DNA of 64,000 bases from Chrysomallon squamiferum (lineage: Eukaryota; Animalia; Mollusca): contig CM022667.1 of the NCBI GenBank assembly GCA_012295275.1, forward strand, positions 1,550,001-1,614,000, in the 5' to 3' direction. A program made the position numbers and the translations under genes. The notes beneath the pieces are model-generated. The model was not told the origin of the DNA. It made no database searches and was given only the letters and a program-made list of their open reading frames with translations. Shown in pieces: positions 33,234 to 63,558 of the stretch. Position 1 is the stretch's first letter. Every line of letters begins with the position of its first letter.

Positions 33234-33266
<33 letters not shown>

Positions 33267-35937: not shown

Positions 35938-37284
35938 TAAATTCAGGTTCAGGCAGAACAGCAAAATGTGAATGACCCCAAAACTCCTCTTGTCAGTCAT
36001 AACGTAAAGGAATACTCCAGTATAAGCGCAAAGTCCGTTGATCTACCCCGACCTGGCAGGTCGTATGGCACCAGACTGAAGAGAAGGAAAAACCTGCTGG
36101 AACGTCGCAGAAAGATAGTCAACGTGGAATTCGCTCTGGCGATGACTGGATTAATGTTAATGCTCCTTGTGACAGAGTTGCACTTTGAGGATATATATCC
36201 AATTCATTCCGATGTCGCGTTTTACATCAAGCTGGCGATATCGATAACCACTGGGGTTTTACTGCTTGCTGTTCTGGCTTATCACATTACCGTAGTCAAA
36301 TTAAAAATGACAAACAAAAATATTTACGATTACCGGATGGTTGTTACGAAAACGTTCGTTTTTAAAGTTTCTATGGAACTCCTCGTGTGCGCCGTTCATC
36401 CGCTTCCAGGAAACATCAACGTGACGTTTGATACGATAACAGGAGAACAGGGGAGAGTTCCCGTGGACGCAGTTTTATCCATTCTCATGCTGCTGCGTTT
36501 CTACATTGTGATAAAGTTTATTATCGTTCACAGCCACTGGATGATCAACATATACATGCAGAGCGTTGGGGACCTGAACAAAGTCGACATCGACACTTGC
36601 TTTATCTTGAAGAGTCTCATAATGAACCATCCCATGCTGCTGACAGTGTCCATGATGCTAACGGTTCTGTTTATCAACACCTGGGCAATGAGGGCATGCG
36701 AATCGTACTACGTACCAGACAGCGATCAGAACGACCTTTTCAATTCAATGTGGCTCGTAACGGTGACCTTCCAACGGGGCTACGGGGATCTCTCGCCCAA
36801 CAGTTACTGCGGACGTTTCATAGCCGCGGAAACGGGTTTCATGGGACTAGGGATAACAGCACTGCTGGTGACGGTTGTGACGGCAAAATTCCAACAGACG
36901 AGATCCGAGCGCTATCTGCACGCGTTCATGGCCGAGTCTGAACTGCAGAAGAGAAAGGAAATCGCAGCTGCCGACATCATTAAGTTGGTGCTGAAGGTGT
37001 GGCTGTTGCATCGCCGTAACAAACTGACGCGTCAACTAAGTTTGCTGTATAGAATAAAACTGAACAAAACCGTGCAAAAACTGCGAGGAATTGATGACGA
37101 AATTACAAGCATCATCGAGAACAATACCGACATAATAGACGTGGGCATCAACATGATCACGGCGGGTACCGCACTGGAGAAAGTGCAGATACCAAAAGAT
37201 GATTTCAAAGAGGACGAGTTTGAAGCTCACATAAAAAGCATTAACAACCAATTAAATGCTATACAATCAAGTTTGCAACAATGA
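35470..37284 (+). CDS. SK/KCNN-like channel, array copy 1 (ATG exon 35470-35472 + 35947-37284) with altered pore TFQRGYGD
   Basis: AAAATG|GTAAGT and ATTCAG|GTTCAG give M-VQAEQQNVNDPK in frame. Near-identical to the 58277 copy except around the pore. Confidence 0.85.
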
Positions 37285-39925: not shown

Positions 39926-40478
39926 GTGGCTCAATTCAATGTGGCTCGTAGCGGTGACCTTCCTCACTGTCGGCTACGGGGATCTCTCGCCCAACAGTTA
40001 CTGCGGACGTTTCATAGCCGCGGAAACGGGTTTCATGGGAGTAGGGATAACAGCACTGCTGGTGACGGTTGTGACGGCAAAATTCCAACAGACGAGATCC
40101 GAACGCTATCTGCACGCATTCATGGCCGAGTCTGAACTGCAGAAGAGAAAGGAAATCGCAGCTGCCGACATCATTAAGTTGGTGCTGAAGGTGTGGCTGT
40201 TGCATCGCCGTAACAAACTGACGCGTCAACTAAGTTTGCTGTATAGAATAAAACTGAACAAAACCGTGCAAAAACTGCGAGGAATTGATGACGAAATTAC
40301 AAGCATCATCGAGAACAATACCGACATAATAGACGTGGGCATCAACATGATCACGGCGGGTACCGCACTGGAGAAAGTGCAGATACCAAAAGATGATTTC
40401 AAACAGGACGAGTTTGAAGCTCACATAAAAAGCATTAACAACCAATTAAATGCTATACAATCAAGTTTGCGACAATGA
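39926..40478 (+). pseudogene. 5'-truncated SK channel fragment (pore to C-terminus), part of a ~3.2-kb partial duplication
   Basis: Begins abruptly at SMWLVAVTFLTVGYGD directly after AT-rich repeat-unit sequence. No S1-S5. Downstream sequence repeats 37284 onward with an offset of 3194. Confidence 0.85.
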
Positions 40479-40599: not shown

Positions 40600-40912
40600 T
40601 AATAATTTTATATTATTATTTATTTATTTATTTATTCATTTATTTATTTATTTTATTTATGCTAACAGAAGCCCTCATCTCGATATTACTGCCAATATTA
40701 CGGCAGCCACAATAGCGTATAAGTTCAGCATTGTTATTTTGGGTTATTTTTGGATACTGAACGATTGTTTCCAACGTTTTGTCAATTAAAACAGAAAGAA
40801 ATATGAAAACACATACAGTTTAATGAAGAAAAAAAATGTATTTTGTTTTGCAATATTAAACTTACTACAAAATGTTAGTAAACAAAAGTAAGTTAAAAAC
40901 AATACCCATACG

Positions 40913-40945
<33 letters not shown>

Positions 40946-41277
40946 TGTATCTATGTATGTGACACAATAGATACAAACAAAATCTTAAAATGTCCAGTAA
41001 ACTGAATTCCAAAGAAAACTCGAGTTGTAAACAAACAGTAAAATATTTTAGAAAAATACCACATCTAAAATTTCTAGTATCTAGACAGAAAAATACACAA
41101 ATCCACAGAAAATAAACAAATAGCACTAATGTTTTAGCTTTTCAACAACACAGATAGTACTGCATTCCAGCAGACAATGCTCGAGTTGTTTTAAGAATAT
41201 ATTTTCCTGTTTATGGAAAATGTAAACCTGAAAATAAATGATTCTATTCTGCCAATTAATTAAGAGCAGCCGTTTGT

Positions 41278-42139: not shown

Positions 42140-43469
42140 TGAAAAAGGAGAATGAAAAAAAATTAAAAGGAATATAAATAAACAAAAAAGAAAAAGCTGG
42201 ATTGAAATAAAACAAAGGAAACAATTTTAAACATTCAAATACAAATTTTTCATATTATACTCATATTAAAAAATATTTAAATAAACATTCAATGTATTTA
42301 GATGATACTTGACAAATTTTTTTCACAAACAAGGAACATTTTAGTTCTATAAAAAAAATAATATATAAAGTTAATTTCTGTACATTCATGTAGTGATATA
42401 TTCATTATTATTAATATTCTAAAAGTCAAAAAGTCAAAAAAAAAAAAAAAAAAAAAATAAAATAAAAAAAAATAATAATTAAGACACTAAATGGTTATCT
42501 TGAAAGATATTAATAATAACATTATTTCTCTCCAAGTTAGAAAAATGGGAGTTCTCTCCTAAATAAAAATTGAATTCCATTATATTATGCCAGTTGGGGA
42601 AATTGGAAAACCTCTCATAAAAGAATCTCGAGTTTCATTATATCAGGTTAGTTTGGAAAAGTGGAAAACCTCTCTTAGAAGAACATTGGATTTGCTTTTT
42701 ATCATTACATCTGTGTTTAATTAAATCAGTCTAGCTCAAAATAGCAGACATCTGTAAACAAATGAATCTTAACATTATACAGCTTAGAAAAGTGAAAGTG
42801 ATTCTACGTTTGTAGATGTAATATACATTTTAGTAAGTCTATTCAGATTTGAGTTTATGTCCAGCCTGTTTACAAGTGTCAAAGTTCTTTTACTTAATAT
42901 ACTGAAATCTGCAATGAAATTCATGGGTATAGCTATTTAAATATACAGTTCTGATCCTCTCTGTATTTGTTTAATACCTAAATCTTTTCTGACAACTGAT
43001 GACTTAAGAAGATTTTTAATTTTGTAAAAATGTATTCCATGTGAAGATGTTAAGTATTACTGTTGACATCAGAAGTAGAATTAACATTCAAGAAATGGAA
43101 ACAATTCTCAGTCCACTTAAAATTTGTTAACTTTATTAACATTGTTTTTACAAATAAAAGCATCTACTTACACTCCATAAATAAAACTTGACCACAGTTG
43201 CTTAACAATTAAATAATAAAATCACCTTCTTTTCTTTACTGACAAACAGTATGTATATAATACACATATAAAAAAAATAATCTAGTGGTCTGGCTACTTT
43301 AAAAATAAAATAAAACAACAGTGAAATGCAAACATGCATTTTCCCAATTATTTCAGTATAATAACTGGTTTGTGGAAGAGGATTAGGGACATGATATGCT
43401 GCCTTTAATGAAACTCAAGATTCTTTTTGGAGTTTTTTTTTTTACTCAAGAGAGATAATCAGATAAATC

Positions 43470-44904
43470 TCATCGGCCTACAGCATCACATGCTTCAGCA
43501 AGCTTCTGCAGTGTGACAGGATGATACTGACTTTTCCACTGTCGTAGCATTTGGTAAACCACTTCGTACTGACCGTCTGCTCTATATTGCATTTCGAAAT
43601 TGTCCAGTTGTCCTTCTGAAAGCCCCAGCTTACGACCTAACATCCTCCATTTTTTACCTATGTGAGTAGCAATGTAGCCCATTTGATCCTGTGTAGGTTC
43701 AGCTGTTGAAGCTTAAAATAACAAGAAGACAAATTTGATTGGCCAGTGAAAATAAATTTGTGCCAAACAAATAATATAAAAATATATATATATAAAAAAA
43801 ATAATGAAAGTTTTTAATTATGAATTATGTATACACACAGGAACACACACATACACACCCACACACACACACACATATAAACACACATGCATACACACAC
43901 TCATACATGCACTGAAACTGGCAAATACACAAACATGCATATAAAAGTGCATACAGATATGTATGTATGTATGTATATGTAAACACACATTAACACACAC
44001 AGTTCTGGCTTATTCTCTCCAAAACAAAGCATTAAAAGTCAATTTGGTAAAAAAAAAATATTAAGACAGCAGATGCAGCTTTATAAGATAAATGATATTC
44101 AATCACATTTACCTAATTTCAAAGACTGTGAAAGTATGAAGCACTGTAAAACAGGGGCTGACTAAACTATTACTAGTATTAATGTTACTACTACTAGTAC
44201 TACTTCTAATACTACTACTATTATTATTATTATTATTATTATTAGATCAAGTTAAACTGCTATTTGTCTGACTGAAACTCCTCTGTCTATCTTTAAGATT
44301 TGTTTAAGAAATTTGAATTACTGATGGAATAAAATTTTTTTAAAAAGATATAAATAATAATATCTTTATAACATACCACGGTCTTTAGAAGGGGTGGCAT
44401 CATCATCAAGATCCTGGAATGATACAAGAAGAAAACTTTTATAAAATTGAAAGGTAACTGTTAATTATCTGAAATTTTGCAAGAACAGACTCCAAATAGC
44501 TACATGATTTGAAAAAAAATAGTAATAATAATAAAATAAAATAAAATAAAACCAAAAATACAAATTAAACTGTTTTAAGTGAATGTATATGTATGTGTAT
44601 ACATGAAAAGAAATCCATACAAAACATGTATACTTTTTTATGTTCTTTTGTTGTCGTCTTTTTAAAACTTTTTATACATATATTTTGTTAAATGGACATA
44701 ATATCAGCATAACATATATGATATTCAAAATCTTTCTAAAACCAAATGCTCATACTTAATTTGGATATATATATATTATTATTATTATTATTATTATTAT
44801 ATTATTTTTTCTGTCTCAAGAAATACAATCTGATTAAAAATGTTTAAGCTTATTGATCATAGATACTGTTTATAAATACTTACATTATCTCTCCTGCTTG
44901 CCAT
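43470..44904 (-). CDS. IMD/RIPK1-like death-domain adaptor, copy A: lacks the RHIM exon, DD prematurely stopped (possible pseudogene)
   Basis: Exons 44884-44904 (accATGG; MASRRDN), 44377-44413 (DLDDDATPSKDR) and 43470-43711 (DD: IGKKWRMLGRKLGLSEGQLD...YQMLRQWK...LAEAC). A GGA>TGA change removes GDLSDYLS. Confidence 0.75.
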
Positions 44905-45249
44905 GGTTCCTTGTAATGTAAGACTGCCTAAAAATAGTTCTGACCAAAGATAAAAACATGAACTATGTTGAAACACAAACAACAACTACAGAGCTTTTGT
45001 GTTTCCTATCACTGACTGAGCACATTTTGGCAGTAAATGAAAAGCTATCTACCATTTATGGTCAATAATGCCTGTTGAATCAATTAGCAGTATTTTAAAT
45101 AAGAATATAAAAAAAAAAAAAGAAAGAAACAAATTAAATAAAAAAAATATAAAAAGATAAAATAAAAGATATAAAATAAAATAAAAAATTATAAATATAG
45201 ATTCTTTGAATAAACAAAAATAAAACCCTGTTACATACTATACTGTCAT

Positions 45250-45297
<48 letters not shown>

Positions 45298-45606
45298 TAT
45301 AAACTGTAAAGATGTTTTCAATTTATTTAATTAGTTCAATACACACTCATACTGTCTACAAATTCGGTTTATTTTAAGACATATTTTTATGTTTGTCTTT
45401 AGAACCATTATGAAAACTTACCAGCCAAAATGGTGGTGGGAGGATATAAAAAATCAAATACAAATAATAATAATAATAAATTAAAACAATTAAAAATATA
45501 CCACCTTCCCAACAGATAAGCATATTTATTTTTCTAAATACTTCATTATAAAAATATCTGATTTTGAATTTTTTCTGAAAAGTAATCTGTCTTTGAGAAG
45601 ATATTT

Positions 45607-45684
<78 letters not shown>

Positions 45685-46800
45685 GTTTTGTTGTTGTTAT
45701 TTGCTTTCATGATTTTATTTCAAACATGATTAACCGAAATAAGCTTAAGATAATATAATTGTTGTAAATATTAAAAATAGTTATTTCTGATAGAATGTTA
45801 TAAAAGTTTAGCTTTGTTTCATTAAGTAAATTATAAAACAGAACAGAAGAAATAAATACTTAAAAATTAAAATAATAAAAATAAACATTAAAAAATCATT
45901 ATGTAAATATTAAAATAGCATGACCACTTGTCCAGTTTGCTTTACTCTGATCGTGTTGTCACCTATCCTATTTTAAAAATAGTAGCGTCATTGTATAATC
46001 TACATCGTATCTCGAAATTAATTAATATCTAGAAAGTGACTGTAAGCATTTATCGTTATTAGGTGAGAGAAACAATGCGAAAGTGAAAGTAAGAAAAAAT
46101 AAAACAAAATAATAGTGTTTGAATAACAGTTATACCTAACTTGAGCTGCTGATCGTAGGAATTATATAATCTTAAATGTATTTGAGAAGATTACCTTATT
46201 AAGAAAGAATAATGTGGAAAATTTCGTGTACTGTTAACCACAAAACTTTTTCCAACTTCCTTGTATTTTATGTTTCGGTTAACCAATATTCATGTTTCAC
46301 TAGGGTCCTGATAATCGAGACTACAGAAGAAAACAATGTTTGACTGGTACGCATGACTTCGTATAGCTCTATTCAGATCTGAGACAAATGTAATTATTTA
46401 AAATAATTATGTGAATTTAACATTGTACTTAGATGACAATTTTAGACTGTTGAATTATTATTATTATTTTTTTTTTTTTTTTAAATGCAACAACGACAAC
46501 AATATATATTTTTAAAAAAAGACCTAAAAAAAAAAAGAAGAAGAAAAACGAGAAAGAAATGAAAACGCGGGAAATATGTTTTAGAAGATATTTTTAATAT
46601 TTTTAGGAGATTACTTTATTAAGAAGAAATAACGTATTTTTAACCACAATTTTTTTTTCATCTTCCATGTAGTTTATGTCTTGACTAAGGTCCTGATAAT
46701 CGAGACTACATTTGACTGGTACTCATGAGTTTATTTTGCTCTGTTAACATTTGAGACTAATGTAATTATTTTTAATAATTATATGAATTTAACATTTGTA

Positions 46801-47000
46801 NNNNNNNNNNNNNNNNNNNNNNNNNNNNNNNNNNNNNNNNNNNNNNNNNNNNNNNNNNNNNNNNNNNNNNNNNNNNNNNNNNNNNNNNNNNNNNNNNNNN
46901 NNNNNNNNNNNNNNNNNNNNNNNNNNNNNNNNNNNNNNNNNNNNNNNNNNNNNNNNNNNNNNNNNNNNNNNNNNNNNNNNNNNNNNNNNNNNNNNNNNNN
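46801..47000. other. Assembly gap (200 N) inside the tandem array
   Basis: Run of n. Confidence 1.
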
Positions 47001-47137
47001 AATAAAATAAAAATAAAAATAAATAAATAAATAAAGATTGTCTCTTCAATATCGGAAATGACGTCAATACAATTATTGTTATTTGTTTGTACTAGAAATG
47101 CATCCAATTTCAGCTTGAAAATAATTTCATTTTAAAA

Positions 47138-47512
47138 ATGGTAGGTTACTGTCAATACTGGATTCATTTGTTAAATCATAATAGCAGTTTGCAGTAATTA
47201 TTCAAAAAGATATACATTTTGTTTAGTTATTATTTTTTAAAATACCTATAGAAAGAACAAATATACAATCATAACGAAAACAAAATAAAAAAGTATATAT
47301 AAAAAAGAGTAATAATTATTATAGACTTTTGAAATATTGTTATTAATTTCGAAAAATCAGCTTTTGAAACTATTTCAAATAATTTGTGCTACTGAAAGGA
47401 AATGGTTTTATTAATTAAAATCCGGTTTTATACCTATTACCCAGCACATTTCTTGGGTCAAGAATGACGTCATATTTACGGACATTTGTATAGTCAATAC
47501 GAAATAGTCTTC

Positions 47513-47549
<37 letters not shown>

Positions 47550-47625
47550 AAAAAAGAAAAAAAAAAGGATAAAGAAGGTGTTCTATATCGATAGATCTTT
47601 CTCAGTCATAATCCTGATTCAGGAA

Positions 47626-47667
<42 letters not shown>

Positions 47668-49016
47668 TTAAATTCAGGTTCAGGCAGAACAGCAAAATGT
47701 GAATGACCCCAAAACTCCTCTTGTCAGTCATAACGTAAAGGAATACTCCAGTATAAGCGCAAAGTCCGTTGACCTACCCCGACCTGGCAGGTCGTATGGC
47801 ACCAGACTGAAGAGAAGGAAAAACCTGCTGGAACGTCGCAGAAAGATAGTCAACGTGGAATTCGCTCTGGCGATGACTGGATTAATGTTAATGCTCCTTG
47901 TGACAGAGTTGCACTTTGAGGACATATATCCAATTCATTCCGATGTCGCGTTTTACATCAAGCTGGCGATATCAATAACTACTGGGTTTTTACTGCTTGC
48001 TGTTCTGGCTTATCACATTACCGAAGTCAAATTAAAAATGACAAACAAAAATATTTACGATTACCGGATGGTTGTTACGAAAACGTTCGTTTTTAAAGTT
48101 TCTATGGAGCTCCTCGTGTGCGCCGTTCATCCGCTTCCAGGAAACATCAACGTGACGTTTGATACGATAACCGGAGAACAGGGGAGAGTTCCCGTGGACG
48201 CAGTTTTATCCATTCTCATGCTGCTGCGTTTCTACATTGTGATAAAGTTTATTATCGTTCACAGCCACTGGATGATCAACATATACATGCAGAGCGTTGG
48301 GGACCTGAACAAAGTCGACATCGACACTTGCTTTATCTTGAAGAGTCTCATGATGAACAATCCCATACTGCTGACAGTGTCCATGATGCTAACGGTTCTG
48401 TTTATCAACACCTGGGCAATGAGGGCATGCGAATCGTACTACGTACCAGACAGCGACCAGAACGGCCTTTTCAATTCAATGTGGCTCGTAGCGGTGACCT
48501 TCCTCACTGTCGGCTACGGGGATCTCGCCCAACAGTTACTGCGGACGTTTCAAAGCCGCGGAAACGGGTTTCATGGGAGTAGGGATAACAGCACTGCTGG
48601 TGACGGTTGTGACGTCAAAATTCCAACAGACGAGATCCGAACGCTATCTGCACGCATTCATGGCCGAGTCTGAACTGCAGAAGAGAAAGGAAATCGCAGC
48701 TGCCGACATCATTAAGTTGGTGCTGAAGGTGTGGCTGTTGCATCGCCGTAACAAACTGACGCGTCAACTAAGTTTGCTGTATAGAATAAAACTGAACAAA
48801 ACCGTGCAAAAACTGCGAGGAATTGATGACGAAATTACAAGCATCATCGAGAACAATACCGACATAATAGACGTGGGCATCAACATGATCACGGCGGGTA
48901 CCGCACTGGAGAAAGTGCAGATACCAAAAGATGATTTCAAAGAGGACGAGTTTGAAGCTCACATAAAAAGCATTAACAACCAATTAAATGCTATACAATC
49001 AAGTTTGCGACAATGA
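47138..49016 (+). pseudogene. SK-like channel array copy with a 2-bp deletion frameshift just after GYGD (or a sequencing error)
   Basis: ATG exon 47138-47140, main exon from 47678. Reads GATCTCGCCC at 48521 versus GATCTCTCGCCC in sister copies. The ORF splits into 47699-48673 and 48573-49016. Confidence 0.8.
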
Positions 49017-49107
49017 TGTTAAACCAGAGAGAGAGAGAGAAAAAAAAGGTTTATTTTCTCGTCCAAACAAATTTAAAAAAAAAGAAAAGAAAAAAAAAAG
49101 GAAGAAA

Positions 49108-49138
<31 letters not shown>

Positions 49139-49791
49139 TAATAATAATTTTATATTATTTATTTATTTATTTATTCATTTATTTATTTATTTTATTTATG
49201 CTAACAGAAGCCCTCATCTCGATATTACTGCCAATATTACGGCAGCCACAATAGCGTATAAGTTCAGCATTGTTATTTTGGGTTATTTTTGGATACTGAA
49301 CGATTGTTTCCAACGTTTTGTCAATTAAAAATAAAGAAAATATGAAAACATACAGTTTAATGAAAAAAAAAAGTATTTTATTTTGCAAAATTAAACTTAC
49401 TACGAAATGTTAGTAAACAAAAGTAAGTTAAAAACAATACCCATAAGATATATGTATGTATGTATGTGACACAATAGATACAAACAAAATCTTAAAATGT
49501 CCAGTAAACTGAATTCCAAAGAAAACTCGAGTTGTAAACAAACAGTAAAATATTTTAGCAAAATACTACATCTAAAATTTCTAGTATCTAGATAGAAAAA
49601 TACACAAATCCACAGAAAATAAACAAATAGCACTAATGTTTTAGCTTTTCAACAACACAGATCGTACTGCACTCCAGCAGACAATGCTCGAGTTGTTTTA
49701 AGAATATATTTTCCTGTTTATGGAAAATGTAAACCTCAAAATAAATGATTCTATTCTGCCAATTAATTAAGAGCAGCCGTTTGTATTGTGT

Positions 49792-49823
<32 letters not shown>

Positions 49824-50050
49824 TGTCTTATTTACACTATCTACATTTATCTCTTCTTCTTGTACACTCTCTCTTTTAATACACCTTTATGAATTAAAAT
49901 CTGAAGATAACAAAATAATTTCCAAAAATAACATAGCCATTCACTGGCAGATAACCCAATATTAGATAAAAAAACAAACAAAAAACACATCATTTTGCAC
50001 AATGATTTTAAAATAACAAAGTTGGTGCTAATTTTTCAAGAAAACAACGG

Positions 50051-50081
<31 letters not shown>

Positions 50082-51708
50082 ATTACTTTTTCATTGATTT
50101 TGCAGTCAAAATTATTTGTGAAATGGAATTCTCATTAATGTTAAGTTGCTAAAAATGATCAACCAAATTTTAACCTGGTATTTTTAAAAAGCTCTTTGAT
50201 CAATAAAGATAACTTAAAAAAAAATATAAAATAAAATAAAATAAAATAAAATTATATATCTATAAAGAAAATAACTTTAAAAAATAAATGATGGCATAAA
50301 TAATGGGAGATTATTGTTATTGTTATTTTATTTATATCTTATCAATAACTACTAACAATTTGACTGGCTATAATAAAAAAAAGGAATTCTAAATGAACAA
50401 CAAAAAAAGTAAAAATAAAAGTTTAAAAAAAGGGAGTATCACAATTGTCAAGAGACACTTGATAGTTATTACATAACAGATAATCAAAAAGTACTGTTAA
50501 GAAACAATGTATTTTACCTTTCAGTTTTCTCAAAACTGAAACCATGACAACATTTAAAGTTAGATATTGACAAAAACAGAAAAACAAAGAAGCGGAAAAA
50601 AAATAAAAATAAAAATAAAAGAAAGAAAAGAATGAAAAAGGAGAATGAAAAAAAATTAAAAGGAATATAAATAAATAAAAAAGAAAAAGCTGGATTGAAA
50701 TAAAACAAAGGAAACAATTTTAAATATTCAAATACAAATTTTTCATATTATGCTCATATTAAAAAATATCTAGTAAATATTTTTTATTACATTCAATGTA
50801 TTTAGATGATACTTGACTTAAATTTTCCCAGCTACATTTTTAAATTCACAAACAAGGAACATTTTTAGTTCTATAAAAAATAATATATAAAGTTAATTTC
50901 TGTACATTCATGTAGTGATATATTCATTATTATTAATATTCTAAAAGTCAAAAAGTCAATAAAAAAAAAAAAATAATTAAATCAGTTTAATTAAATCAGT
51001 CTAGCTCAAAATAGCAGACATCTGTAAACAAATGAATCTTAACATTATACAGCTTAGAAAAGTGAAAGTGATTCTACGTTTGTAGATGTAATATACATTT
51101 TAGTAAGTCTATTCAGATTTGAGTTTATGTCCAGCCTGTTTACAAGTGTCAAAGTTCTTTTACTTAATATACTGAAATCTGCAATGAAATTCATGGGTAT
51201 AGCTATTTAAATATACAGTTCTGATCCTCTCTGTATTTGTTTAATACCTAAATCTTTTCTGATGACTTAAGAAGATTTTTAATTTTGTAAAAATGTATTC
51301 CATGTGAAGATGTTCAGTATTACTGTTGACATCAGAAGTAGAATTAACATTCAAGAAATGGAAACAATTCTCAGTCCACTTAAAATTTGTTAACTTTATT
51401 AACATTGTTTTTACAAATAAAAGCATCTACTTACACTCCATAAATAAAACTTGACCACAGTTGCTTAACAATTAAATAATAAAATCACCTTCTTTTCTTT
51501 ACTGACAAACAGTATGTATATAATACACATAGAAAAAAAAATAATCTAATGGTCTGGCTACTTTAAAAATAAAATAAAACAACAGTGAAATGCTAACATA
51601 CATTTTCCCAATTACTTCAGTGTAATGACTGGTTTGTGGAAGAGGATTAAGGACATGATATGCTGCCTTTAATGAAACTCAAGATTCTTTTTGGAGTTTT
51701 TTTTTTAC

Positions 51709-54020
51709 TCAAGAGAGATAATCAGATAAATCTCCTTGGCCTACAGCATCACATGCTTCAGCAAGCTTCTGCAGTGTGAAACAATCAGACTGACTTTTCC
51801 ACTTTAGTAGCATTTGGTAAACCACTTCGCACCTACCCTCTGTGCGATATTCTATTTTCAAATTGTCCAGTTGTCCGTCTGAAAGCCCCAGCTCACGACC
51901 TAACTGCCCCCATTTACTACCTATGTTATCAGCAATGTATTTCATTTGATCCTGTGTAGGTTCAGCTGCTGAAGCTGAAAATAACAAGAAGACAAATTTG
52001 ATTGGCCAGTGAAAATAAATTTGTGCCAAACAAATAATATAAAAATATATATATATAAAAAAAATAATGAAAGTTTTTAATTATGAATTATGTATACACA
52101 CAGGAAGAGAGATAATCAGATAAATCTCCTCGGCCTACAGCATCACAAGCTTCAGCAAGCTTCTGCAAGGTGACAGGATGATACTGACTTTTCCACTGTC
52201 GTAGCATTTGGTAAACCACTTCGTACTGGCCCCCTATTGTATGTTGCATTTTGAAATTGTCCAGTTGTTCGTCTGAAAGCCCCAGCTTACGACCTAACTG
52301 CCTCCATTTACTACCTATGTGAGTAGCAATGTAGGCCATTTGCTCGTGTGTAGGTTCAGCTGTTGAAGCTGAAAATAACAAGAAGACAAATTTGATTGAC
52401 CAGTGGATATAAATTTGTGCCAAACATCAAATATAAAAAAAAAGTATATATATATATAAAATAATAAAAGTACTGAAATAAAATAGTTATTAATTATGAA
52501 TTACGTATACAGTCAGGAACATATATAGATACATACGTACATACACACATACATACACACGCTCATACATGCACTGAAACTGGAAAATACACAAACATAT
52601 AAAAGTGCATACAGATATGTATGTATGTACGTATAGGCAAACACACATAAAGACACAGTTCTGGCTTATTCTCTCCAGGAAAGAAAGTATTAAAAATCAG
52701 TTTGGTAAAAAAAAAAAATTAAGACAGCAGATGCAGCTTTATAAGATAAATGATATTCAATCTGAATGAACTGTGTATAAAAACACTCACTTGTAATTGG
52801 TTTTTTTCGTGCTTTCTTAGATTTCTTTTTGCCAGAACCCGTATACATTTCATTGTTGTTTCCAATCTGAATTGTAGAAGTTTCTGGGTCACCAACAAAT
52901 ACCCTTCTATAACTGCCATCAGGTCCTAAAGTAAAAACAAATATAAAGTAAACTCTAAAAATCTTGAAGTTGCAATCAGATTCAAGATAGTGTTGTATTC
53001 AAGATATTAATCATATGTAACAGAAGAAAAAATAATTACAAATAAAATCGATTGTTCGCGGTCTGATAGTCTACATTCACAATATTATTAAGAACTCCTT
53101 ATATTCAGTGAGTTCACCTAATTTCAAAGACTGTGTAAGTATGAACCACTGTAAAACAGGGATTGAGATAATTAAAAAAACCTAAGAGGAGAAAGTAAAA
53201 ATAAAAATAAAACCCATTTTTTGTGGTACGGTAATGTACATTGATATTATTATTAAAAACTTGTATTCAGTGAATGTTTATCCTTTCTTTCTTTTTTTAA
53301 ATATATTTTAAATCACATTTACCTAATTTCAAAGACTGTGTAAGTATGAACCACTGTAAAACAGGGGCTGACTAAACTATTACTACTATTAATGTTACTA
53401 CTACGAGTACTGCTTCTACTACTACTACTATTATTATTATTATTATTATTAGATCAAGTTAAATTGCTATTTTTCTGACTGAAACTCCTCTGTCTATCTT
53501 TAAGATTTGTTTAAGAAATTTGAATTACTGATGGAATAAAAAAAATTAAAAAAGATAGAAATAATAATAACTTTATAACATACCACGGTCTTCCATATAA
53601 AATGGTGGTTTCATATTTGGTCCATTAAAAGGGGTGGCATCTTCATCTAGATCCTGGAATGATACAAGAAGAAAACTTTTATAAAATTGAAAGTTAACTA
53701 TTAATTATCTGAAATTTTGCAAAGACAGACCCTAAATAGCTACATGATTTGAAAAAAATAGTAATAATAATAAAATAAAATAAAATAAAATAAAACCGAA
53801 AAGAAATATACCAAAAATACAAATTTTAAGTGAATGTATATGTATGTGTATACATGAAACGAAATCCATACAAAACATGTATACTTTTTTATGTTCTTTT
53901 GTTGTTGTCTTTTTAAAACTTTTTATACATATGTTTTGTTAAATGGACATAATATCAGCATAACAAGCATAATATTCAAAATCTTTCTAAAACCAAATGC
54001 TCATACTTAGTTTGGTTATA

Positions 54021-54058
<38 letters not shown>

Positions 54059-54160
54059 TATTTTTTCTGTCTCAAGAAATACAATCTGATTAAAAATGTA
54101 TAAGCTTATTGATCATAGATACTGTTTATAAATACTTACATTATATCTTCTGCTTGCCAT
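51709..54160 (-). CDS. IMD/RIPK1-like adaptor, copy B: caspase site/IBM + RHIM-like motif + two tandem death-domain exons
   Basis: Exons 54140-54160 (MASRRYN), 53584-53653 (DLDEDATPFNGPNMKPPFYMEDR), 52791-52925 (PDGSYRRVFVGDPETSTIQIGNNNEMYTGSGKKK...), DD1 52088-52368, DD2 51709-51974. All are GT-AG and phase-compatible. Confidence 0.82.
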
Positions 54161-54361
54161 GGTTCCTCGTAATGTAAGACTGCCTAAAAATAGTTCTGAC
54201 CAAAGATAAAAACATGAACTATGTTGAAACACAAACAACAACTACAGAGCTTTTGTGTTTCCTATCACTGACTGAGCACATTTTGGCAGTAAATGAAAAG
54301 CTATCTACCATTTATGGTCAATAATGCCTGTTGAATCAATTAGCAGTATTTTAAATAAGAA

Positions 54362-54416
<55 letters not shown>

Positions 54417-54841
54417 AAATAAAAGATATAAAATAAAATAAAAAATTATAAATATAGATTCTTTGAATAAACAAAAATAAAACCCTGTTACATACTATAC
54501 TGTCATTAAATATATATATATATATATATTTTTATAAACTGTAAAGATGTTTTCAATTTATTTAATTAGTTCAATACACACTCATACTGTCTACAAATTC
54601 GGTTTATTTTAAGACATATTTTTATGTTTGTCTTTAGAACCATTATGAAAACTTACCAGCCAAAATGGTGGAGGGAGGACATAAAAAATCAAATACAAAT
54701 AATAATAATAATAAATTAAAACAATTAAAAATATACCACCTTCCCAACAACTAAGCATATTTATTTTTCTAAATACTTCATTATAAAAATATCTGATTTT
54801 GAATTTTTTCTGAAAAGTAATCTGTCTTTGAGAAGATATTT

Positions 54842-54938
<97 letters not shown>

Positions 54939-56803
54939 GTTTTGTTGTTGTTATTTGCTTTCATGATTTTATTTCAAACATGATTATCCGAAATAAGCTT
55001 AAGATAATATAATTGTTGTAAATATTAAAAATAGTTATTTCTGATAGAATGTTATAAAAGTTTAGCTTTGTTTCATTAAGTAAATTATAAAACAGAACAG
55101 AAGAAATAAATACTTACAAATTAAAATAATAAAAATAAACATTAAAAAATCATTATGTAAATATTAAAATAGCATGACCACTTGTCCAGTTTGCTTTACT
55201 CTGATCGTGTTGTCACCTATCCTATTTTAAAAATAGTAGCGTCATTGTATAATCTATATCGTATCTCAAATTAATTAATATCTAGAAAGTGACTGCAAGC
55301 ATTTATCGTTATTAGATGAGTGAAACAATGCGAAAGTATATTTAAAAATTAAAAAACAAAAAATTAAGTTTGAAAACAGTTATATTTAAAAAAATGTATT
55401 TGAAAAACAAAAAAAAAGAATAATAAAATTTCGTGTATTGTTATCCACAAAACTTTTCCCAACTTCCTTGATTTTATGTTTCGGTTAAAAAAGAAATCAA
55501 GAAAAAAAAAACAATATTTGAAACTTCGAAAGCTCTATTCAGATCTGAGACAAATGTAATTATTTAAAATAATTATGTGAATTTAACATTGTACTTACAC
55601 GACAATTTTAGACTGTTGAATTATTATTATGATTTTTTTTTTTTAAATGCAACAACGACAACAAATATATTTAAAAATTAAAAAACAAAAAATTAAAAAA
55701 AGATTAAAAAGAAGAAGAAAAAAGAGAAAGAAATGAAAACGCGGGAAATATGATTGAGAAGATATTTTAAATCTATTTTAGGAGATTACTTTATTATTAT
55801 TATTTGATTATTATTATTATGTTGTTGTTGTAGTAGTAGTTGTTATTTCAAACATGATTAACCCAAATTGCTTAAGATAATATAATTGTTATAAAAGATT
55901 AGTTCTTTTTCATTATTAAGTAAATTATAAAACAGAACAGAACAAATAAAAATAAATACTTTAAAATTAAAATAATCAAAATAATAATCAAAAATCATTA
56001 TGTAACTAATATGACCAGTTGTCGAATTTCCCTAACGCTGATCGTGTTTTCACCTATCCTATTTTAAAAATCGCAGTTTCGTTGAATAATCGCTATAATA
56101 TATGGAAATTAATTAAAACCTAGAATGTTATTGTAAACATTTAATTATCAGTAATACATTATCAGCGAAGCAATGCCAAAGTGAAAGTAAGAAAAAATAA
56201 AATAAAATAATTATGTATGAATAACAGTTATACCTGTTTGGAGGTGAAGATCGTACAAATTATCTACGTTTTATATCTATTTTAGGAGATTACTTTATTA
56301 CGGAAGAATAACCTGGAAAATTTCGTTTATTTTTAACCACAAAAAATGTCCATACGTAGGTCCTGATAATCGAGACTACAAATATTTGACTGGTACTCAT
56401 GATTTCATTTTGCTCTGTTTACATTTGAGACGAATGTAATTATTTTGAATAATTAGGTGAATTTAACATTTGTACTTAGACGACTGTTTTAACCCTTAAT
56501 TGTTGAATTATTATTATTAAAAAGAAAAAAAAAAGAAGAGACAAATATTGATGCCTTAAAGGGATAGAAATTATTTTATTCTATCTTTCCTTTTTTTCTC
56601 TTTTTATTCCGTTAGTTTTAACGATATTTTGGAGTAACTCAAATATTATTCACGCTTATTTCTACACATTTGTGCCTGATAGACTGGATTTGCATGGATT
56701 ATTCTCAATAGACGTGCTACACTGAGAATAACAGCGATGACAAAACAACAGAAATAATAATAACAATGACAATAACAGTAACAAAATTTAGTGCATAACC
56801 ATA

Positions 56804-56862
<59 letters not shown>

Positions 56863-57130
56863 TCTATTAACGATGTTGTTGATTATGCTAACATATAGAT
56901 TATATAACACACACACACACACATACACACATAAATAATAAAATAAAATAAGTATTAAACAAGAAGCTCTAAAAAACAAACAAAAAGCAGCCACACGATC
57001 AGTCAATCAAACTTACAGTTTTACATTAACTTGTAACAAAAGTATACTGAAGATATTTTATTTTATGAATATATTTATTTATCATATCAAAATTTGAAAC
57101 ACAGAAATGTATTTTAATTACAATTTAAAG

Positions 57131-57168
<38 letters not shown>

Positions 57169-57684
57169 TATTATTATTACTAATAAACGTAATAAAAACA
57201 ACAACACAAAAACAAATAAAGAAACATAAATTTAATAATAATAATAAGAAGAAGAAGAAAAAAAAAAAATAATAAAAAAAAAAAAAATAAAAAAAAAAAA
57301 AATAAATAAATAAATAAAATGAACAACTTTTACATCCAGGAAACCGTTTTAACGAAAGAGCTGTTTCAAGCCGAGTTAATTTTGTTTGTTTTTGTTTTGT
57401 TTATTTCGAAAAAAGTTTGACAGTGCAGTGCAGTTTGATTTGTAACTAACTATTCTTTGAACGCCTCTTATTATCGTCGTACTAAAGACTGGATATTTAG
57501 CAAACACCTTTTTTCATGCTTTTCAGTAAATCTTAGAGACGATAACAATCTTTAGTTTGCAAACAAAAAAATATATAAAGATTGTCTCTTCCATATCGGA
57601 AATGACGTCAATACAATTATTGGTTTATTTTATTTGTACTAGATATTTATCCAATTTCAGCTTGAAAATAATTTCATTTTAAAA

Positions 57685-58091
57685 ATGGTAAGTTATTGTC
57701 AATACTGGATTCATTTGTTAAATCATAATAGTAGTTTGCAGTAATTATTCAGAAAGATATACATTTTGTATAGTTATTAATTTTTAAAATACCTATAAAA
57801 AGAACAAATATACGATCATAACGAAAACAAAATAAAGAAGTATATATAATAAAGAATAATAATTATTAGAGACTTTTCAAATATTAGTATTAATTTCGAA
57901 AAATCAGCTTTTGAAACAATTTCAAATAATTTGTGCTACTGAAAGGAAATGGTTTTATTAATTAAAATCCGGTTTTATACCTATTACCCAGCACATTTCT
58001 TGGGTCAAGAATGACGTCATATTTACGGAAATTTTTATATTCAACACAAAATAGTCTTCCTTTTAAGAACAAACAAACAAACAAACAAAAA

Positions 58092-58142
<51 letters not shown>

Positions 58143-59596
58143 AGGATAGAGAAAAAGGAAAGACAACAAAAACGGCAATTGTCTAAGATGGTTTTTTTTA
58201 AATAGATCTTTCTCACTCATAATCATGATTCAGGATAATAATAATTTAAATTCAGGTTCAGGCAGAACAGCAAAATGTGAATGACCCCAAAACTCCTCTT
58301 GTCAGTCATAACGTAAAGGAATACTCCAGTATAAGCGCAAAGTCCGTTGACCTACCCCGACCTGGCAGGTCGTATGGCACCAGACTGAAGAGAAGGAAAA
58401 ACCTGCTGGAACGTCGCAGAAAGATAGTCAACGTGGAATTCGCTCTGGCGATGACTGGATTAATGTTAATGCTCCTTGTGACAGAGTTGCACTTTGAGGA
58501 CATATATCCAATTCATTCCGATGTCGCGTTTTACATCAAGCTGGCGATATCAATAACCACTGGGATTTTACTGCTTGCTGTTCTGGCTTATCACATTACC
58601 GATGTCAAATTAAAAATGACAAACAAAAATATTTACGATTACCGGATGGTTGTTACGAAAACGTTCGTTTTTAAAGTTTCTATGGAGCTCCTCGTGTGCG
58701 CCGTTCATCCGCTTCCAGCAAACATCAACGTGACGTTTGATACGATAACCGGAGAACAGGGGATAGTTCCCGTGGACGCAGTTTTATCCATTCTCATGCT
58801 GCTGCGTTTCTACATTGTGATAAAGTTTATTATCGTTCACAGCCACTGGATGATCAACATATACATGCAGAGCGTTGGGGACCTGAACAAAGTCGACATC
58901 GACACTTGCTTTATCTTGAAGAGTCTCATGATGAACCATCCCATGCTGCTGACAGTGTCCATGATGCTAACGGTTTTGTTTATCAACACCTGGGCAATGA
59001 GGGCATGCGAATCGTACTACGTACCAGACAGCGATCAGAACGGCCTTTTCAATTCAATGTGGCTCGTAGCGGTGACTTTCCTCACTGTCGGCTACGGGGA
59101 TCTCTCGCCCAACAGTTACTGCGGACGTTTCATAGCCGCGGAAACGGGTTTCATGGGAGTAGGGATAACAGCACTGCTGGTGACGGTTGTGACGTCAAAA
59201 TTCCAACAGACGAGATCCGAGCGCTATCTGCACGCGTTCATGGTCGAGTCTGAACTGCAGAAGAGAAAGGAAATCGCAGCTGCCGACATCATTAAGTTGG
59301 TGCTGAAGGTGTGGCTGTTGCATCGCCGTAACAAACTGACGCGTCAACTAAGTTTGCTGTATAGAATAAAACTGAACAAAACCGTTCAAAAACTGCGAGG
59401 AATTGACGACGAAATTACAAGCATCATCGAGAACAATACCGACATAATAGACGTGGGCATCAACATGATCACGGCGGGTACCGCACTGGAGAAAGTGCAG
59501 ATACCAAAAGATGATTTCAAAGAGGACGAGTTTGAAGCTCACATAAAAAGCATTAACAACCAATTAAATGCTATACAATCAAGTTTGCGACAATGA
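57685..59596 (+). CDS. SK/KCNN-like K+ channel, intact array copy (ATG exon 57685-57687 + 58256-59596)
   Basis: Uninterrupted ORF with six TM segments, WLVAVTFLTVGYGDLSPNSYCGR and a CaM-binding-like region. Confidence 0.9.
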
Positions 59597-59690
59597 TGTT
59601 AAACCAGAGAGAGAAAAAAAAAAAAAAGGTTTATTTTCTCGTTCAAACAAATTTAAAAAAAAAAATGAAAAAAAAAAAAAAAAAAAAAAA

Positions 59691-59783
<93 letters not shown>

Positions 59784-60032
59784 TTTATATTATTATTATT
59801 ATTATTATTATTTATTTATTTATTCTATTTATGCTAACAGAAGCCCTCATCTCGATATTACTGCCAATATTACGGCAGCCACAATAGCGTATAAGTTCAG
59901 CATTGTTATTTTGGGTTATTTTTGGATACTGAATGATTGTTTCCAAAGTTTTGTCAATTAAAATAGAAAGAAAATATGAAAACACATACAGTTTAATGAA
60001 AAAAAACCATGTATTTTGTTTTGCAATATTGA

Positions 60033-60125
60033 ACTTACTACAAAATGTTGGTAAATAAAAGTAACTTACTACAAAATGTTGGTAAATAAAAGTAACTTAC
60101 TACAAAATGTTGGTAAATAAAAGTA
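60033..60125. repeat. 31-bp tandem triplication specific to this array unit
   Basis: ACTTACTACAAAATGTTGGTAAATAAAAGTA x3; present once in the other units. Confidence 0.85.
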
Positions 60126-61295
60126 AGTTAAAAACAATACCTATACGATATATGTATGTATGTATGTACGTATGTATCTATGTATGTGACACAATAGATA
60201 AAACAAAATCTTAAAATGTCCAGTAAACTCTATTCCAAAGAAAACTCCAGTTCTAAACAAACAATACAATATTTTAGAAAAATACCACATCGAAAATTTC
60301 TAATATGTAGATAGATAAGTACATAAAACCACAGCAAATGAACAAATAGCACTAATGTGTTAGCTTTTCAAACACAGATCGTACTGCACTCCAGCAGACA
60401 ATGCTCGACTTGTTTTAAGAATATATTTTCCTGTTTATGGAAAATGTAAACCTCAAAATAAATGATTCTATTCTGCCAATTAATTAAGAGCAGCCGTTTG
60501 TATTGTGTGTGTATGTGTGTGTGTGTGTGTGTGTGTTGTCTTATTTACACTATCTACATTTATCTCTTCTTCTTCTTTTAATACACCTTTATGAATTAAA
60601 ATCTGAAGATAACAAAATAATTTCCAAAAATAACATAGCCATTCACTGGCAGATAACCCAATATTAGATAAAAAAACAAACAAAAAACACATCATTTTGC
60701 ACAATGATTTTAAAATAACAAAGTTGGTGCTAATTTTTCAAGAAAACAACGGAAAAAAAAAAAAAAAAAAAAAAATAAAATCTATTACTTTTTCATTGAT
60801 TTTGCAGTCAAAATTATTTGTGAAATGGAATTCTCATTAATGTTAAGTTGCTAAAAATGATCAACCAAATTTTAACCTGGTATTTTTAAAATGCTCTTTG
60901 ATCAATAAAGATAACTTAAAAAAAAAAAAATAAAATAAAATAAAATAAAATTATATATCTATAAAGAAAATAACTTTAAAAAATAAATGATGGCATAAAT
61001 AATGGGAGATTATTGTTATTGTTATTTTATTTATATCTTATCAATAACTACTAACAATTTGACTGGCTATAATAAAAAAAAAGGAATTCTAAATGAACAA
61101 CAAAAAAAGTAAAAATAAAAGTTTAAAAAAAGGGAGTATCACAATTGTCAAGAGACACTTGATAGTTATTACATAACAGATAATCAAAAAGTACTGTTAA
61201 GAAACAATGTATTTTACCTTTCAGTTTTCTCAAAACTGAAACCATGACAACATTTAAAGTTAGATATTAACAAAAACAGAAAAACAAAGAAGCGG

Positions 61296-61340
<45 letters not shown>

Positions 61341-62226
61341 TGAAAAAGGAGAATGAAAAAAAATTAAAAGGAATATAAATAAATAAAAAAGAAAAAGCTG
61401 GATTGAAATAAAACAAAGGAAACAATTTTAAACATTCAAATACAAATTTTTCATATTATGCTCATATTAAAAAATATCTAGTAAATATTTTTTATTACAT
61501 TCAATGTATTTAGATGATACTTGACTTAAATTTTCCCAGCTACATTTTTAAATTCACAAACAAGGAACATTTTTAGTTCTATAAAAAATAATATATAAAG
61601 TTAATTTCTGTACATTCATGTAGTGATATATTCATTATTATTAATATTCTAAAAGTCAAAAAAAAAAAAAAAAAAAAAATAATAAAAAAATAATAATAAT
61701 TAAGACACTAAATGGTTATCTTGAAAGATATTAATAATAACATTATTTCTCTCCAAGTTAGAAAAATGGGAGTTCTCTCCTAAATAAAAATTGAATTCCA
61801 TTATATTATGCCAGTTGGGGAAATTGGAAAACCTCTCATAAAAGAATCTCGAGTTTCATTATATCAGGTTAGTTTGGAAAAGTGGAAAACCTCTCTTAGA
61901 AGAACATTGGATTTGCTTTTTATCATTACATCTGTGTTTAATTCAATCAGTCTAGCTCAAAATATCAGACATCTGTAAACAAATGAATCTTAATATTATA
62001 CAGCTTAGAAAAGTGAAAGTGATTCTACGTTTGTAGATGTAATATACATTTTAGTAAGTCTATTCAGATTTGAGTTTATGTCCAGCCTGTTTACAATAAA
62101 ACAACAGTGAAATGCAAACATGCATTTTCCCAATTATTTCAGTATAATAACTGGTTTGTGGAAGAGGATTAGGGACATGATATGCTGCCTTTAATGAAAC
62201 TCAAGATTCTTTTTGGAGTTTTTTAC

Positions 62227-63558
62227 TCAAGAGAGATAATCTGATAAATCTCCTCGGCCTACAGCATCACAAGCTTCAGCAAGCTTCTGCAATGTGACAG
62301 GATGATACTGACTTTTCCACTGTCGTAGCATTTGGTAAACCACTTCACCTAACTGACCCTCTGCTATATATTGCATTTTGAAATTGTCCAGTTGTCCTTC
62401 TGAAAGCCTCAGCTTACGACCTAACTTCCTCCATAGAACTCCTATGTTATCAGCAATGTAGTCCATTTGATCCTGTGTAGGTTCATCTGTTGAAGCTTAA
62501 AATAACAAGAAGACAAATTTGATTGGCCAGTGAAAATAAATTTGTGCCAAACAAATAATATAAAAATATATATATATAAAAAAAATAATGAAAGTTTTTA
62601 ATTATGAATTATGTATACACACAGGAACACACACACACACACACACACACATATAAACACACATGCATACACACACTCATACATGCACTGAAACTGGAAA
62701 ATACACAAACATACATATGAAAGTGCATGTATGTATGTATGTATATGTAAACACACATAAACACACACAGTTCTGGCTTATTCTCTCCAGGAAGCAAAGT
62801 ATTAAAAATCAATTTGGTTAAAAAATATTAAGACAGTGCATGCAGCTTTATAAGATAAATGATATTCAATCTGAATGAACTGTGTATAAAAACACTCACT
62901 TGTAATTGGTTTTTTTCGTGGTATCTTAGATTTCTTTTTGCCAGAACCTGCATACATTACATTGTTGTTTCCAATCTGAATTGTAGAAGTTTCTGGGTCA
63001 CCAACCAATACCCTTCTATAACTGCCATCAGGTCCTAAAGTAAAAACAAATATAAAGTAAACTCTAAAAATCTTGAAGTTGCAATCCGATTCAAGATAGT
63101 GTTGTATTCAAGATATTAATCATATGTAACAGAAGAAAAAAGAATTACAAATAAACAATTGTTTGTGGTGTGATGATCTACATTCACAATATTATTAAGA
63201 ACTCCTTATATTCAGTGAGTTCACCTAATTTCAAAGACTGTGTAAGTATGAACCACTGTAAAACAGGGATTGACTAAACTATTACTAGTATTAATGTTAC
63301 TACTACGAGTACTACTTCTAATACTACTACTATTATTATTATTATTATTAATATTAGATCAAGTTAAACTGCTATTTGTCTGACTGAAACTCCTCTGTCT
63401 ATCTTTAAGATTTGTTTAAGAAATTTGAATTACTGATGGAATAAAAAAATTTAAAAAAGATATAAATAATAATATCTTTATAACATACGACAGTCTTCCA
63501 TGATAAATGGTGATTTCATATATGGTCCATTAGAAGGGGTGGCATCTTCATCTAGATC
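62227..63558 (-). CDS. IMD/RIPK1-like adaptor, copy C (start exon lies beyond the window)
   Basis: Exons 63489-63558 (DLDEDATPSNGPYMKSPFIMEDC), 62900-63034 (…TSTIQIGNNNVMYAGSG…) and 62227-62495 (DD with a 1-aa insertion, EGQLGEVV). Confidence 0.82.

What the first reader, a model, noticed from the sequence alone, without database searches (positions are those of the whole stretch)
43446..62495. Death-domain exons are hypervariable while neighbouring channel CDS and introns are nearly identical
Seen: the four DD exons differ in clustered patches. One patch reads MGYIATHIGKKWRM / MAYIATHIGSKWRQ / MKYIADNIGSKWGQ / MDYIADNIGVLWRK; another reads FEMQYRADGQY / FKMQHTIGGQY / LKIEYRTEGRC / FKMQYIAEGQLG. 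Patches are shared in a mosaic way between copies, whereas flanking introns and SK copies differ by few bases. Inference: diversifying selection and/or gene conversion on DD interaction surfaces, as expected from a pathogen arms race or partner-specificity diversification.
Basis: partly seen in the sequence, partly recalled or inferred. Interest (0 to 1): 0.75.

Follow-up and report, generated by a model that had tools for sequence, protein, structure and literature searches.

The report
Snail immune adaptor diversifies binding surface
Three tandem copies of an IMD/RIPK1-like immune adaptor gene, likely from a snail, carry death domains that differ about three to five times more than the duplicated DNA around them, at predicted surface positions likely under diversifying selection, and one copy splices two death domains in a row.

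Summary
The patches are real. The four DD exons belong to three minus-strand genes, co-duplicated with intronless SK-channel genes, that encode a kinase-less RHIM + RIPK1-type death-domain adaptor. The closest named relatives are gastropod 'RIPK1-like' and 'immune deficiency-like' proteins. DD exons differ 5.7-14%, against 1.7-3.3% for the rest of the units and 0.6-1.5% for SK. 'Introns nearly identical' is only partly true: the intron beside copy c2a is as diverged as its exon (8.3% vs 7.7%). Whole-exon dN/dS is 1.5-2.1, not significantly above 1. Site models find 12-15% of codons at omega of about 11, which survives hot-spot nulls and recombination simulations but rests on few codons. Changes avoid the fold core (3 of 30 vs 29 of 57 positions) and helices 5-6, and cluster in helices 1-2 and the H3-H4 loop. 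Conversion has modest support. Selection on Imd death domains is already in print for bugs; I found no report of this array. Verdict: new variant of a known kind, driver untested.

The parts
43446..43711 (-). DD exon c1 (gene 1); TGA at codon 80 would remove helix 6
   Evidence: the stop was not checked in reads
44377..44413 (-). gene 1 exon 2 (shorter, 37 nt), candidate caspase site; in frame with the DD exon
   Evidence: AG/GT ends, frame; splicing predicted
44884..44904 (-). gene 1 first coding exon (ATG)
44090..44110 (.). deletion junction in gene 1 that removes the RHIM exon (short GATT microhomology)
   Evidence: not checked in reads
51709..51974 (-). DD exon c2b (gene 2, second DD), the most diverged copy
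   Evidence: matched with 0-2 differences by contigs of X1, X2, X3, X5, X6, X9
51975..52101 (-). 127-nt GT-AG intron created by the tandem duplication; its removal joins c2a to c2b in frame
   Evidence: joint 51974/52102 in X9 and X6; frame
52088..52368 (-). DD exon c2a (gene 2, first DD); ends at 52102 when spliced, or at the stop at 52088 when not
   Evidence: X2 contig 52194-52376 with 0 differences
52791..52925 (-). gene 2 RHIM exon (IQIG core)
   Evidence: Pfam RHIM 17.1 bits, below the cut-off of 20; spliced to DD-type exons in X6-X9
53584..53653 (-). gene 2 exon 2 with candidate caspase site followed by an IAP-binding-like motif (DLDED then ATPF)
   Evidence: joints in X8 and X9; function inferred
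54140..54160 (-). gene 2 first coding exon (ATG)
   Evidence: exon 1-2 joint in X8
62227..62495 (-). DD exon c3 (gene 3), one extra codon in the H3-H4 loop
62900..63034 (-). gene 3 RHIM exon
63489..63558 (-). gene 3 exon 2; exon 1 lies beyond the window end
35941..37284 (+). intronless SK-type channel copy s1, 3-nt net deletion and altered residues before the pore motif
39931..40478 (+). 5'-truncated SK copy s2 (unit 1)
47672..49016 (+). SK copy s3 (unit 2), 2-nt frameshift
58250..59596 (+). intact SK copy s4 (unit 3)
46801..47000 (.). 200-N assembly gap between unit 1 and unit 2

Best explanation
This is a tandem array of kinase-less RHIM plus death-domain genes, likely IMD-type immune adaptors of a gastropod, whose death-domain surface codons have likely been driven apart by diversifying selection between paralogues, likely with short gene-conversion tracts reshuffling the patches. 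Shown: gene structure, splicing, RHIM-like and DD modules, excess exon divergence, a conserved core, an in-frame DD-DD transcript joint. Inferred by analogy with Drosophila Imd and RIPK1: the RHIM joins an amyloid seeded by an upstream receptor, the DD co-assembles with FADD-type DDs to recruit a caspase-8/Dredd, and the caspase cuts after the acidic N-terminal site to expose an IAP-binding end, leading to NF-kB/Relish activation or cell death. Changing the H1, H2 and H3-H4 loop surfaces (types Ia, Ib, IIIb) while keeping the core, the R603-equivalent arginine and H5-H6 (type IIb) would alter what can dock on the assembly without breaking it. I slightly favour escape from microbial DD-binding antagonists over pure partner re-tuning (about 55:45), because the same codons keep changing in many copies.
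For: Best PDB sequence hits are RIPK1 DDs (4 of the top 4, E 3e-8 to 5e-8), and the fold's top hit is the human RIPK1 DD filament. The closest full-length relatives are a 166-aa Gigantopelta 'RIPK1-like' (73 of 161 aligned residues identical) and a 190-aa Haliotis 'immune deficiency-like' protein. The four DDs form one clade (99/96) inside a clade with these (96/92). Site tests: M1a/M2a 2dL 15.7-21.7 on 3 of 3 topologies; M7/M8 14.7-22.0 and M8a/M8 14.7-21.7 on 4 of 4 fits. They stay significant with shared gamma rates (p 0.001 and 0.013) and against a neutral hot-codon class (p 0.0005-0.005, 6 of 6 fits). Only 2 of 192 neutral simulations with hot spots, mosaic topologies and double-base changes reach the lowest observed value. 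Codons 11, 15, 19, 23, 43 and 44 have NEB >=0.85 in 4 of 4 fits. Core positions: 3 of 30 vary against 29 of 57 others, p=1e-4; H5 0 of 10, H6 0 of 8, H3-H4 loop 5 of 6. Contigs of other runs add new residues at the same codons (11, 43, 44). Informative sites fall in three ordered blocks, one made of synonymous sites (p 0.011-0.086), and 7 of 8 c1-c2b 3' flank differences lie within 161 nt of the stop (p 1.6e-4).
Against: Whole-exon omega is 1.5-2.1, not significantly above 1. Only 1 of 6 pairwise NG86 tests is significant, and two pairs give omega of about 1. Dropping codons 11, 19 and 43 leaves p=0.013 or 0.20 depending on topology. There are four sequences, the codon models are my own implementation (NEB, not BEB), and the fullest model hit its omega bound. 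Exon 2 plus the RHIM exon also show pN 0.076 against pS 0.043 (12 vs 2 changes), so high N/S is not unique to the DD. The background class fits omega near 1, which suggests relaxed constraint too. Interface mapping is by helix and loop, not by atomic contacts. The core set comes from homologues found with a profile of these same exons, which is mildly circular. RHIM scores below Pfam's cut-off. No partner, cleavage or immune role was tested.
Confidence: 0.62

Rival explanations
1. Relaxed constraint plus conversion: redundant copies drift at surface positions, and short tracts copied from older paralogues elsewhere make the exons look hypervariable without positive selection.
For: Non-DD windows reach 9.6% and the c2a intron matches its exon in divergence. 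More diverged paralogues exist outside the window (contigs with up to 32 differences over the RHIM exon and its flanks). The background omega fits near 1. Gene 1 has lost its RHIM exon and has a late stop, and three of four SK copies are damaged.
Against: Tracts from older functional donors should raise synonymous divergence at least as much, but c1-c2b has dN 0.176 against dS 0.032. Neutral hot-codon and hot-tract nulls fit worse.
Confidence: 0.22
2. Selection is real but is one-off neofunctionalisation of paralogues, mainly the second DD of the tandem protein, to new host partners or to a capping role, with no microbial antagonist.
For: c2b carries the longest branch, is nearly invariant across six runs, has changed residues aligned to RIPK1 K599 and K604 and the whole H4-H5 loop, and sits as the C-terminal DD of a tandem isoform.
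Against: Codons 11, 19, 23, 43 and 44 carry 3-4 residues among the four copies and more in other runs, so change is recurrent and not confined to c2b.
Confidence: 0.3
3. Assembly artefact: some units are alleles placed in tandem, or the differences are consensus errors.
For: A 200-N gap separates unit 1 from unit 2. SK copies carry small indels. The c1 stop and the RHIM deletion were not checked in reads.
Against: c2a, c2b and c3-type patches are matched by independent contigs, the c2a-c2b adjacency is confirmed by a spliced joint in two studies, and units 2 and 3 are contiguous. Allelism of c1 would not remove the excess of non-synonymous change.
Confidence: 0.06

Closest known systems
Gastropod kinase-less RHIM-DD proteins: Gigantopelta XP_041376100.1 ('RIPK1-like', 166 aa) and Haliotis rufescens XP_046375274.1 ('protein immune deficiency-like', 190 aa)
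   Same: Same size and order: acidic N-terminus with a D-A site near residue 13, (I/L)QIG RHIM, basic linker, C-terminal DD; same DD clade.
   Different: The window holds a recent tandem array with 70-85% identical DDs, a RHIM-less copy and a two-DD isoform; copy number in those species was not examined.
Drosophila Imd (PMC9496462, passages)
   Same: No kinase; RHIM-type motif plus C-terminal DD; candidate caspase site followed by an IAP-binding-like motif.
   Different: The RHIM here keeps the Gln (canonical tetrad); the gene is multicopy; upstream receptor and FADD/Dredd link are untested.
Imd-like genes of stinkbugs and bedbugs (PMC12137711, abstract and passages)
   Same: Diversifying selection reported on the Imd death domain, read as a host-microbe arms race.
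   Different: That work compares orthologues between species; here the divergence is among tandem paralogues in one genome.
Vertebrate RIPK1 (PDB 6ac5, 9kv7, 9v9e; PMC12119088 and PMC12130296, passages)
   Same: RHIM followed by a RIPK1-type DD; positive selection reported in some mammalian orders; R603-equivalent arginine kept in 4 of 4 copies.
   Different: No kinase domain in the spliced gene models; RIPK1 has one DD.

Membership tests
Death domain (PF00531) | profile match above cut-off and six-helix DD fold | tested here: met
   4 of 4 exons, 49-54 bits; model pLDDT 93.5 with six helices; TM 0.85-0.88 to RIPK1 DD
IMD-type adaptor | C-terminal DD with no kinase domain | tested here: met
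   spliced gene 2 model of 168 aa from ATG to stop, joints seen in contigs
IMD-type adaptor | RHIM or cRHIM upstream of the DD | tested here: inconclusive
   canonical IQIG tetrad in genes 2 and 3, shared with homologues, but Pfam RHIM 17.1 bits is under the cut-off of 20; exon absent from gene 1
IMD-type adaptor | N-terminal caspase-8/Dredd site that exposes an IAP-binding motif | tested here: inconclusive
   acidic D-A site in 3 of 3 genes; a D-A pair in the first 60 residues of 7 of 12 short RHIM-DD homologue rows, some of them isoforms of one gene; cleavage not testable; the match of ATPF to an IAP-binding motif is recalled
IMD-type adaptor | binds FADD and signals to Relish/NF-kB downstream of a pattern receptor | not testable with these tools
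   needs binding and knock-down experiments
IMD-type adaptor | orthology to arthropod Imd | not tested
   no named arthropod Imd was in the tree
RIPK1 | N-terminal kinase domain plus RHIM plus DD (definition in PMC12119088, passage) | tested here: not met
   no kinase exon between the ATG exon and the DD; long RIPK1 proteins lie outside the clade of the window DDs

The most novel reading that the evidence does not exclude
A gastropod has turned its IMD-like adaptor into a diversified multigene toolkit: full adaptors with different DD surfaces under recurrent selection, a RHIM-less DD-only copy acting as decoy or inhibitor, and a new RHIM-DD-DD protein born when a 395-bp exon duplication created its own intron. 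Together they would set which microbes trigger, or escape, RHIM-amyloid immune signalling.
Probability: 0.25. Interest if true: 0.75.

Novelty: new variant of a known kind. Interest (0 to 1): 0.5.

Why it matters
Intracellular adaptors are usually single-copy and conserved, so an expanding adaptor family with changing assembly surfaces points to microbial interference or to branching of the pathway at the adaptor level. Spiralian Imd is poorly described: a 2023 paper (PMC9835746, passages) says it had not been found in molluscs, although database records now carry the name. The copies are a natural allelic series for testing which DD surfaces set partner choice, and the c2a-c2b splice shows a tandem-domain protein arising from a very recent exon duplication.

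Tried and rejected
No whole genome is held, so copies beyond the window could not be counted. Two word-index protein searches with single DD exons found nothing; the exhaustive profile search did. The ESM Atlas gave only generic DD clusters. A trial translation of gene 3 exon 2 and the first exon joins were off by one or two bases and were redone. I considered c2a and c2b as alternative last exons: joints from the RHIM exon straight to a c2b-positioned DD exist (X8, X7), but those contigs carry 5 of 101 and 14 of 223 differences, so they more likely come from other paralogues and do not show exon skipping. In one search the T15N state is probably an artefact of table rows not shown and was dropped; all decoded haplotypes are partial (12 of 14, 3 of 5, 17 of 25, 15 of 16, 7 of 26 differences visible). 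The c1 stop and the RHIM deletion were not covered by my two read layings. No complex prediction was run, because a pass by likeness to solved DD filaments would not separate the rivals. GENECONV and codeml were not run; I used a runs test and my own codon models. Earlier-finding look-ups by place (near) and by words returned nothing.
Full report
Layout. Self-comparison shows a roughly 9-12 kb unit repeated three times (about 39.9-46.6, 47.0-56.5 and 57.1-64 kb), each with an intronless SK-type channel gene on the plus strand and a DD gene on the minus strand. A 200-N gap separates the first two units. All eight quoted patches are present. The four DD exons belong to three genes: gene 1 (c1), gene 2 (c2a and c2b, a 395-bp tandem duplication) and gene 3 (c3, first exon beyond the window).

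What the gene is. Upstream of the DD lie a 21-nt ATG exon, a 70-nt exon with an acidic stretch followed by ATP(F/S), and a 135-nt exon with an IQIG tetrad; all introns are GT-AG and the frame is open. Pfam gives Death for 4 of 4 exons and a sub-threshold RHIM hit. Contigs from two runs recorded as RNA (X8, X9) and two unlabelled runs that carry exon-exon joints (X6, X7) join these exons. The top solved relatives are RIPK1 DDs by sequence and by fold. The profile search returned 708 proteins at E<=0.001; the nearest full-length ones are a Gigantopelta 'RIPK1-like' protein of 166 aa and a Haliotis 'immune deficiency-like' protein of 190 aa. 17 of 158 fetched proteins carry the same RHIM pattern. 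In a 60-row DD tree the four window domains form one clade (99/96) within a clade holding those two proteins (96/92), apart from long RIPK1 proteins (88 columns, many forks open). The host is therefore probably a gastropod and the expansion lineage-specific; this is inferred from homology only.

Divergence. DD exons differ 5.7-14.0%, SK copies 0.6-1.5%, the non-DD remainder 1.7-3.3%; ratios 2.6-4.9, 5 of 5 pairs significant. SK copies show pN/pS of about 0.5 and 0.3 against the intact copy. The background is itself patchy: of 64 windows, 7 reach 5.7% and the highest is 9.6%; none reaches 12.5%. For c2a the adjacent intron is as diverged as the exon (8.3% vs 7.7%), and c1-c3 is not significant against its own intron; the contrast is extreme only for c2b (12.5% vs 1.2% in both flanks against c1). 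So 'hypervariable' holds against the unit average but not against every neighbouring intron.

Selection. NG86 omega is 0.96-5.5 and 1 of 6 pairs is significant. One-ratio omega is 1.5-2.1, p 0.075-0.30 against 1. Site models (my implementation of GY94 mixtures) are significant on every topology and frequency model tried, with 12-15% of codons at omega 10-13. I tested the main confounders: shared gamma rate variation (p 0.001, 0.013), a neutral fast-codon class (p 0.0005-0.005), and 192 neutral simulations with hot codons or tracts, switching topologies and, in one third, double-base changes, of which 2 reached the lowest observed statistic and 1 the highest (simulations were fitted on one topology). 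The signal rests on few codons: removing 11, 19 and 43 gives p 0.013 or 0.20. Purifying selection on the fold is clear: 3 of 30 core columns vary against 29 of 57 others. The two upstream exons also show more non-synonymous than synonymous change between genes 2 and 3 (pN 0.076, pS 0.043), as a disordered linker under weak constraint might.

Where the changes lie. The model puts H1 at 7-16, H2 18-27, H3 32-41, H4 47-61, H5 67-76 and H6 80-86. By the interface definitions in PMC11874512 (section 6 read whole: Ia H1/H4, Ib H2/H3, IIa H4 and H4-H5 loop, IIb H5-H6 loop and H6, IIIa H3, IIIb H1-H2 and H3-H4 loops), the top codons fall on Ia (11), the H1-H2 junction (15, 19), Ib (23) and the H3-H4 loop (43, 44), while H5 and H6 are invariant. 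Using the alignment and the residue spacing in PMC12130296 (passages), codon 26 matches RIPK1 R603 and is invariant, whereas c2b alone changes the K599 and K604 equivalents and the loop around M637-I641. This is element-level mapping, not contacts.

Conversion. The eight 2:2 sites support all three groupings, in three ordered blocks; runs-test p is 0.011, rising to 0.086 when adjacent sites are merged and one intron site is added. The last block is two synonymous sites, so it is not convergence by selection. c2b looks like a tract of about 430 nt from a more distant donor set in c1-like flanks. The c2a-c2b duplication itself joins a c2a-type exon end to a c1/c3-type intron, as unequal crossing-over between paralogues would.

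Other individuals. c2b is matched with 0-2 differences in 6 of the 8 runs laid (the best DNA holder may be the source sample), so much of the variation is fixed between paralogues and is not allelic. Further DD variants occur, with new residues at codons 11, 43, 44 and 46 (partial haplotypes), so the family extends beyond the window.

First, 2 of 8 runs (X9 and X6, two studies, one contig each, 33 letters on the short side, whole contig accounted for) skip 51975-52101 with GT-AG ends; this fuses c2a to c2b in frame, giving a predicted 252-aa RHIM-DD-DD protein. Second, gene 1 has lost the RHIM exon by an in-frame deletion and has a stop at DD codon 80; neither was checked in reads, and it may be a decoy or a decaying copy.

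Mechanism. By analogy with Drosophila Imd (PMC9496462, passages: cRHIM amyloid, DD binding to FADD, Dredd cleavage exposing an IAP-binding motif), these proteins likely relay a RHIM-bearing receptor's signal to FADD/caspase-8 and NF-kB. That ATPF resembles the caspase-9 IAP-binding end is recalled, not from a call. Earlier unreviewed notes on this genome describe RHIM-bearing STAND-ankyrin receptors (e1-10417047, e1-10582034), which are candidate upstream partners; I did not test them. Bacterial effectors are known to disable DDs at the Ib arginine (PMC11874512), which makes antagonist escape plausible, but no antagonist is known here.

Novelty. Positive selection on the Imd DD is reported for stinkbugs and bedbugs (PMC12137711, abstract and passages) and on RIPK1 in some mammals (PMC12119088, passages). 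Ten literature searches (listings and abstract starts seen) showed no report of a tandem, diversifying gastropod IMD-like array or of a two-DD isoform, but the library lacks most subscription journals, and I did not open the supplements of PMC12137711 or PMC12119088, which may list sites or molluscan RHIM-DD genes. Verdict: a new variant of a known kind; real, moderately interesting, driver untested.

Noticed in passing
window 8953-10299 (-), 33227-34693 (+), 35941-37284, 39931-40478, 47672-49016, 58250-59596 (+): Six intronless SK-type potassium channel genes, two of them older paralogues (68-71% DNA identity). Pfam CaMBD is found only weakly in one (E 0.067), so calmodulin gating may have diverged. 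Three of the four recent copies are damaged.
   Followed up: partly
window 53584-53653 and 63489-63558: Exon 2 differs at 8 of 70 bases (5 residues) between genes 2 and 3, including the fourth position of the candidate IAP-binding motif (F vs S); gene 1 has a 33-nt in-frame shorter version.
   Followed up: partly
window about 40850-41170, 49400-49700, 37740-38140: Non-coding windows with 9-10% divergence between units, as high as some DD pairs; likely conversion tracts.
   Followed up: no
window 12577-17435 (+): Exons of a CUB-domain protein with a transmembrane-like stretch and a PPTY-containing tail.
   Followed up: no
window 25802-26170 (-): Exon that looks like the start of a cathepsin Z-type protease (recalled motif; no Pfam hit on this fragment).
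   Followed up: no
window 22451-32146 (-): Several short exon-like stretches that resemble molluscan amylase-type repeats (recalled; no Pfam hit for the two tested).
   Followed up: no
run X7 contig on window 52794-52924: A joint that goes back 131 bases, as a tandem repeat of the RHIM exon or a circular RNA would give.
   Followed up: no
window 7231-7548 (+), 27540-27893 (+): Transposase-like fragments by eye; no Pfam hit at E<=0.01.
   Followed up: no
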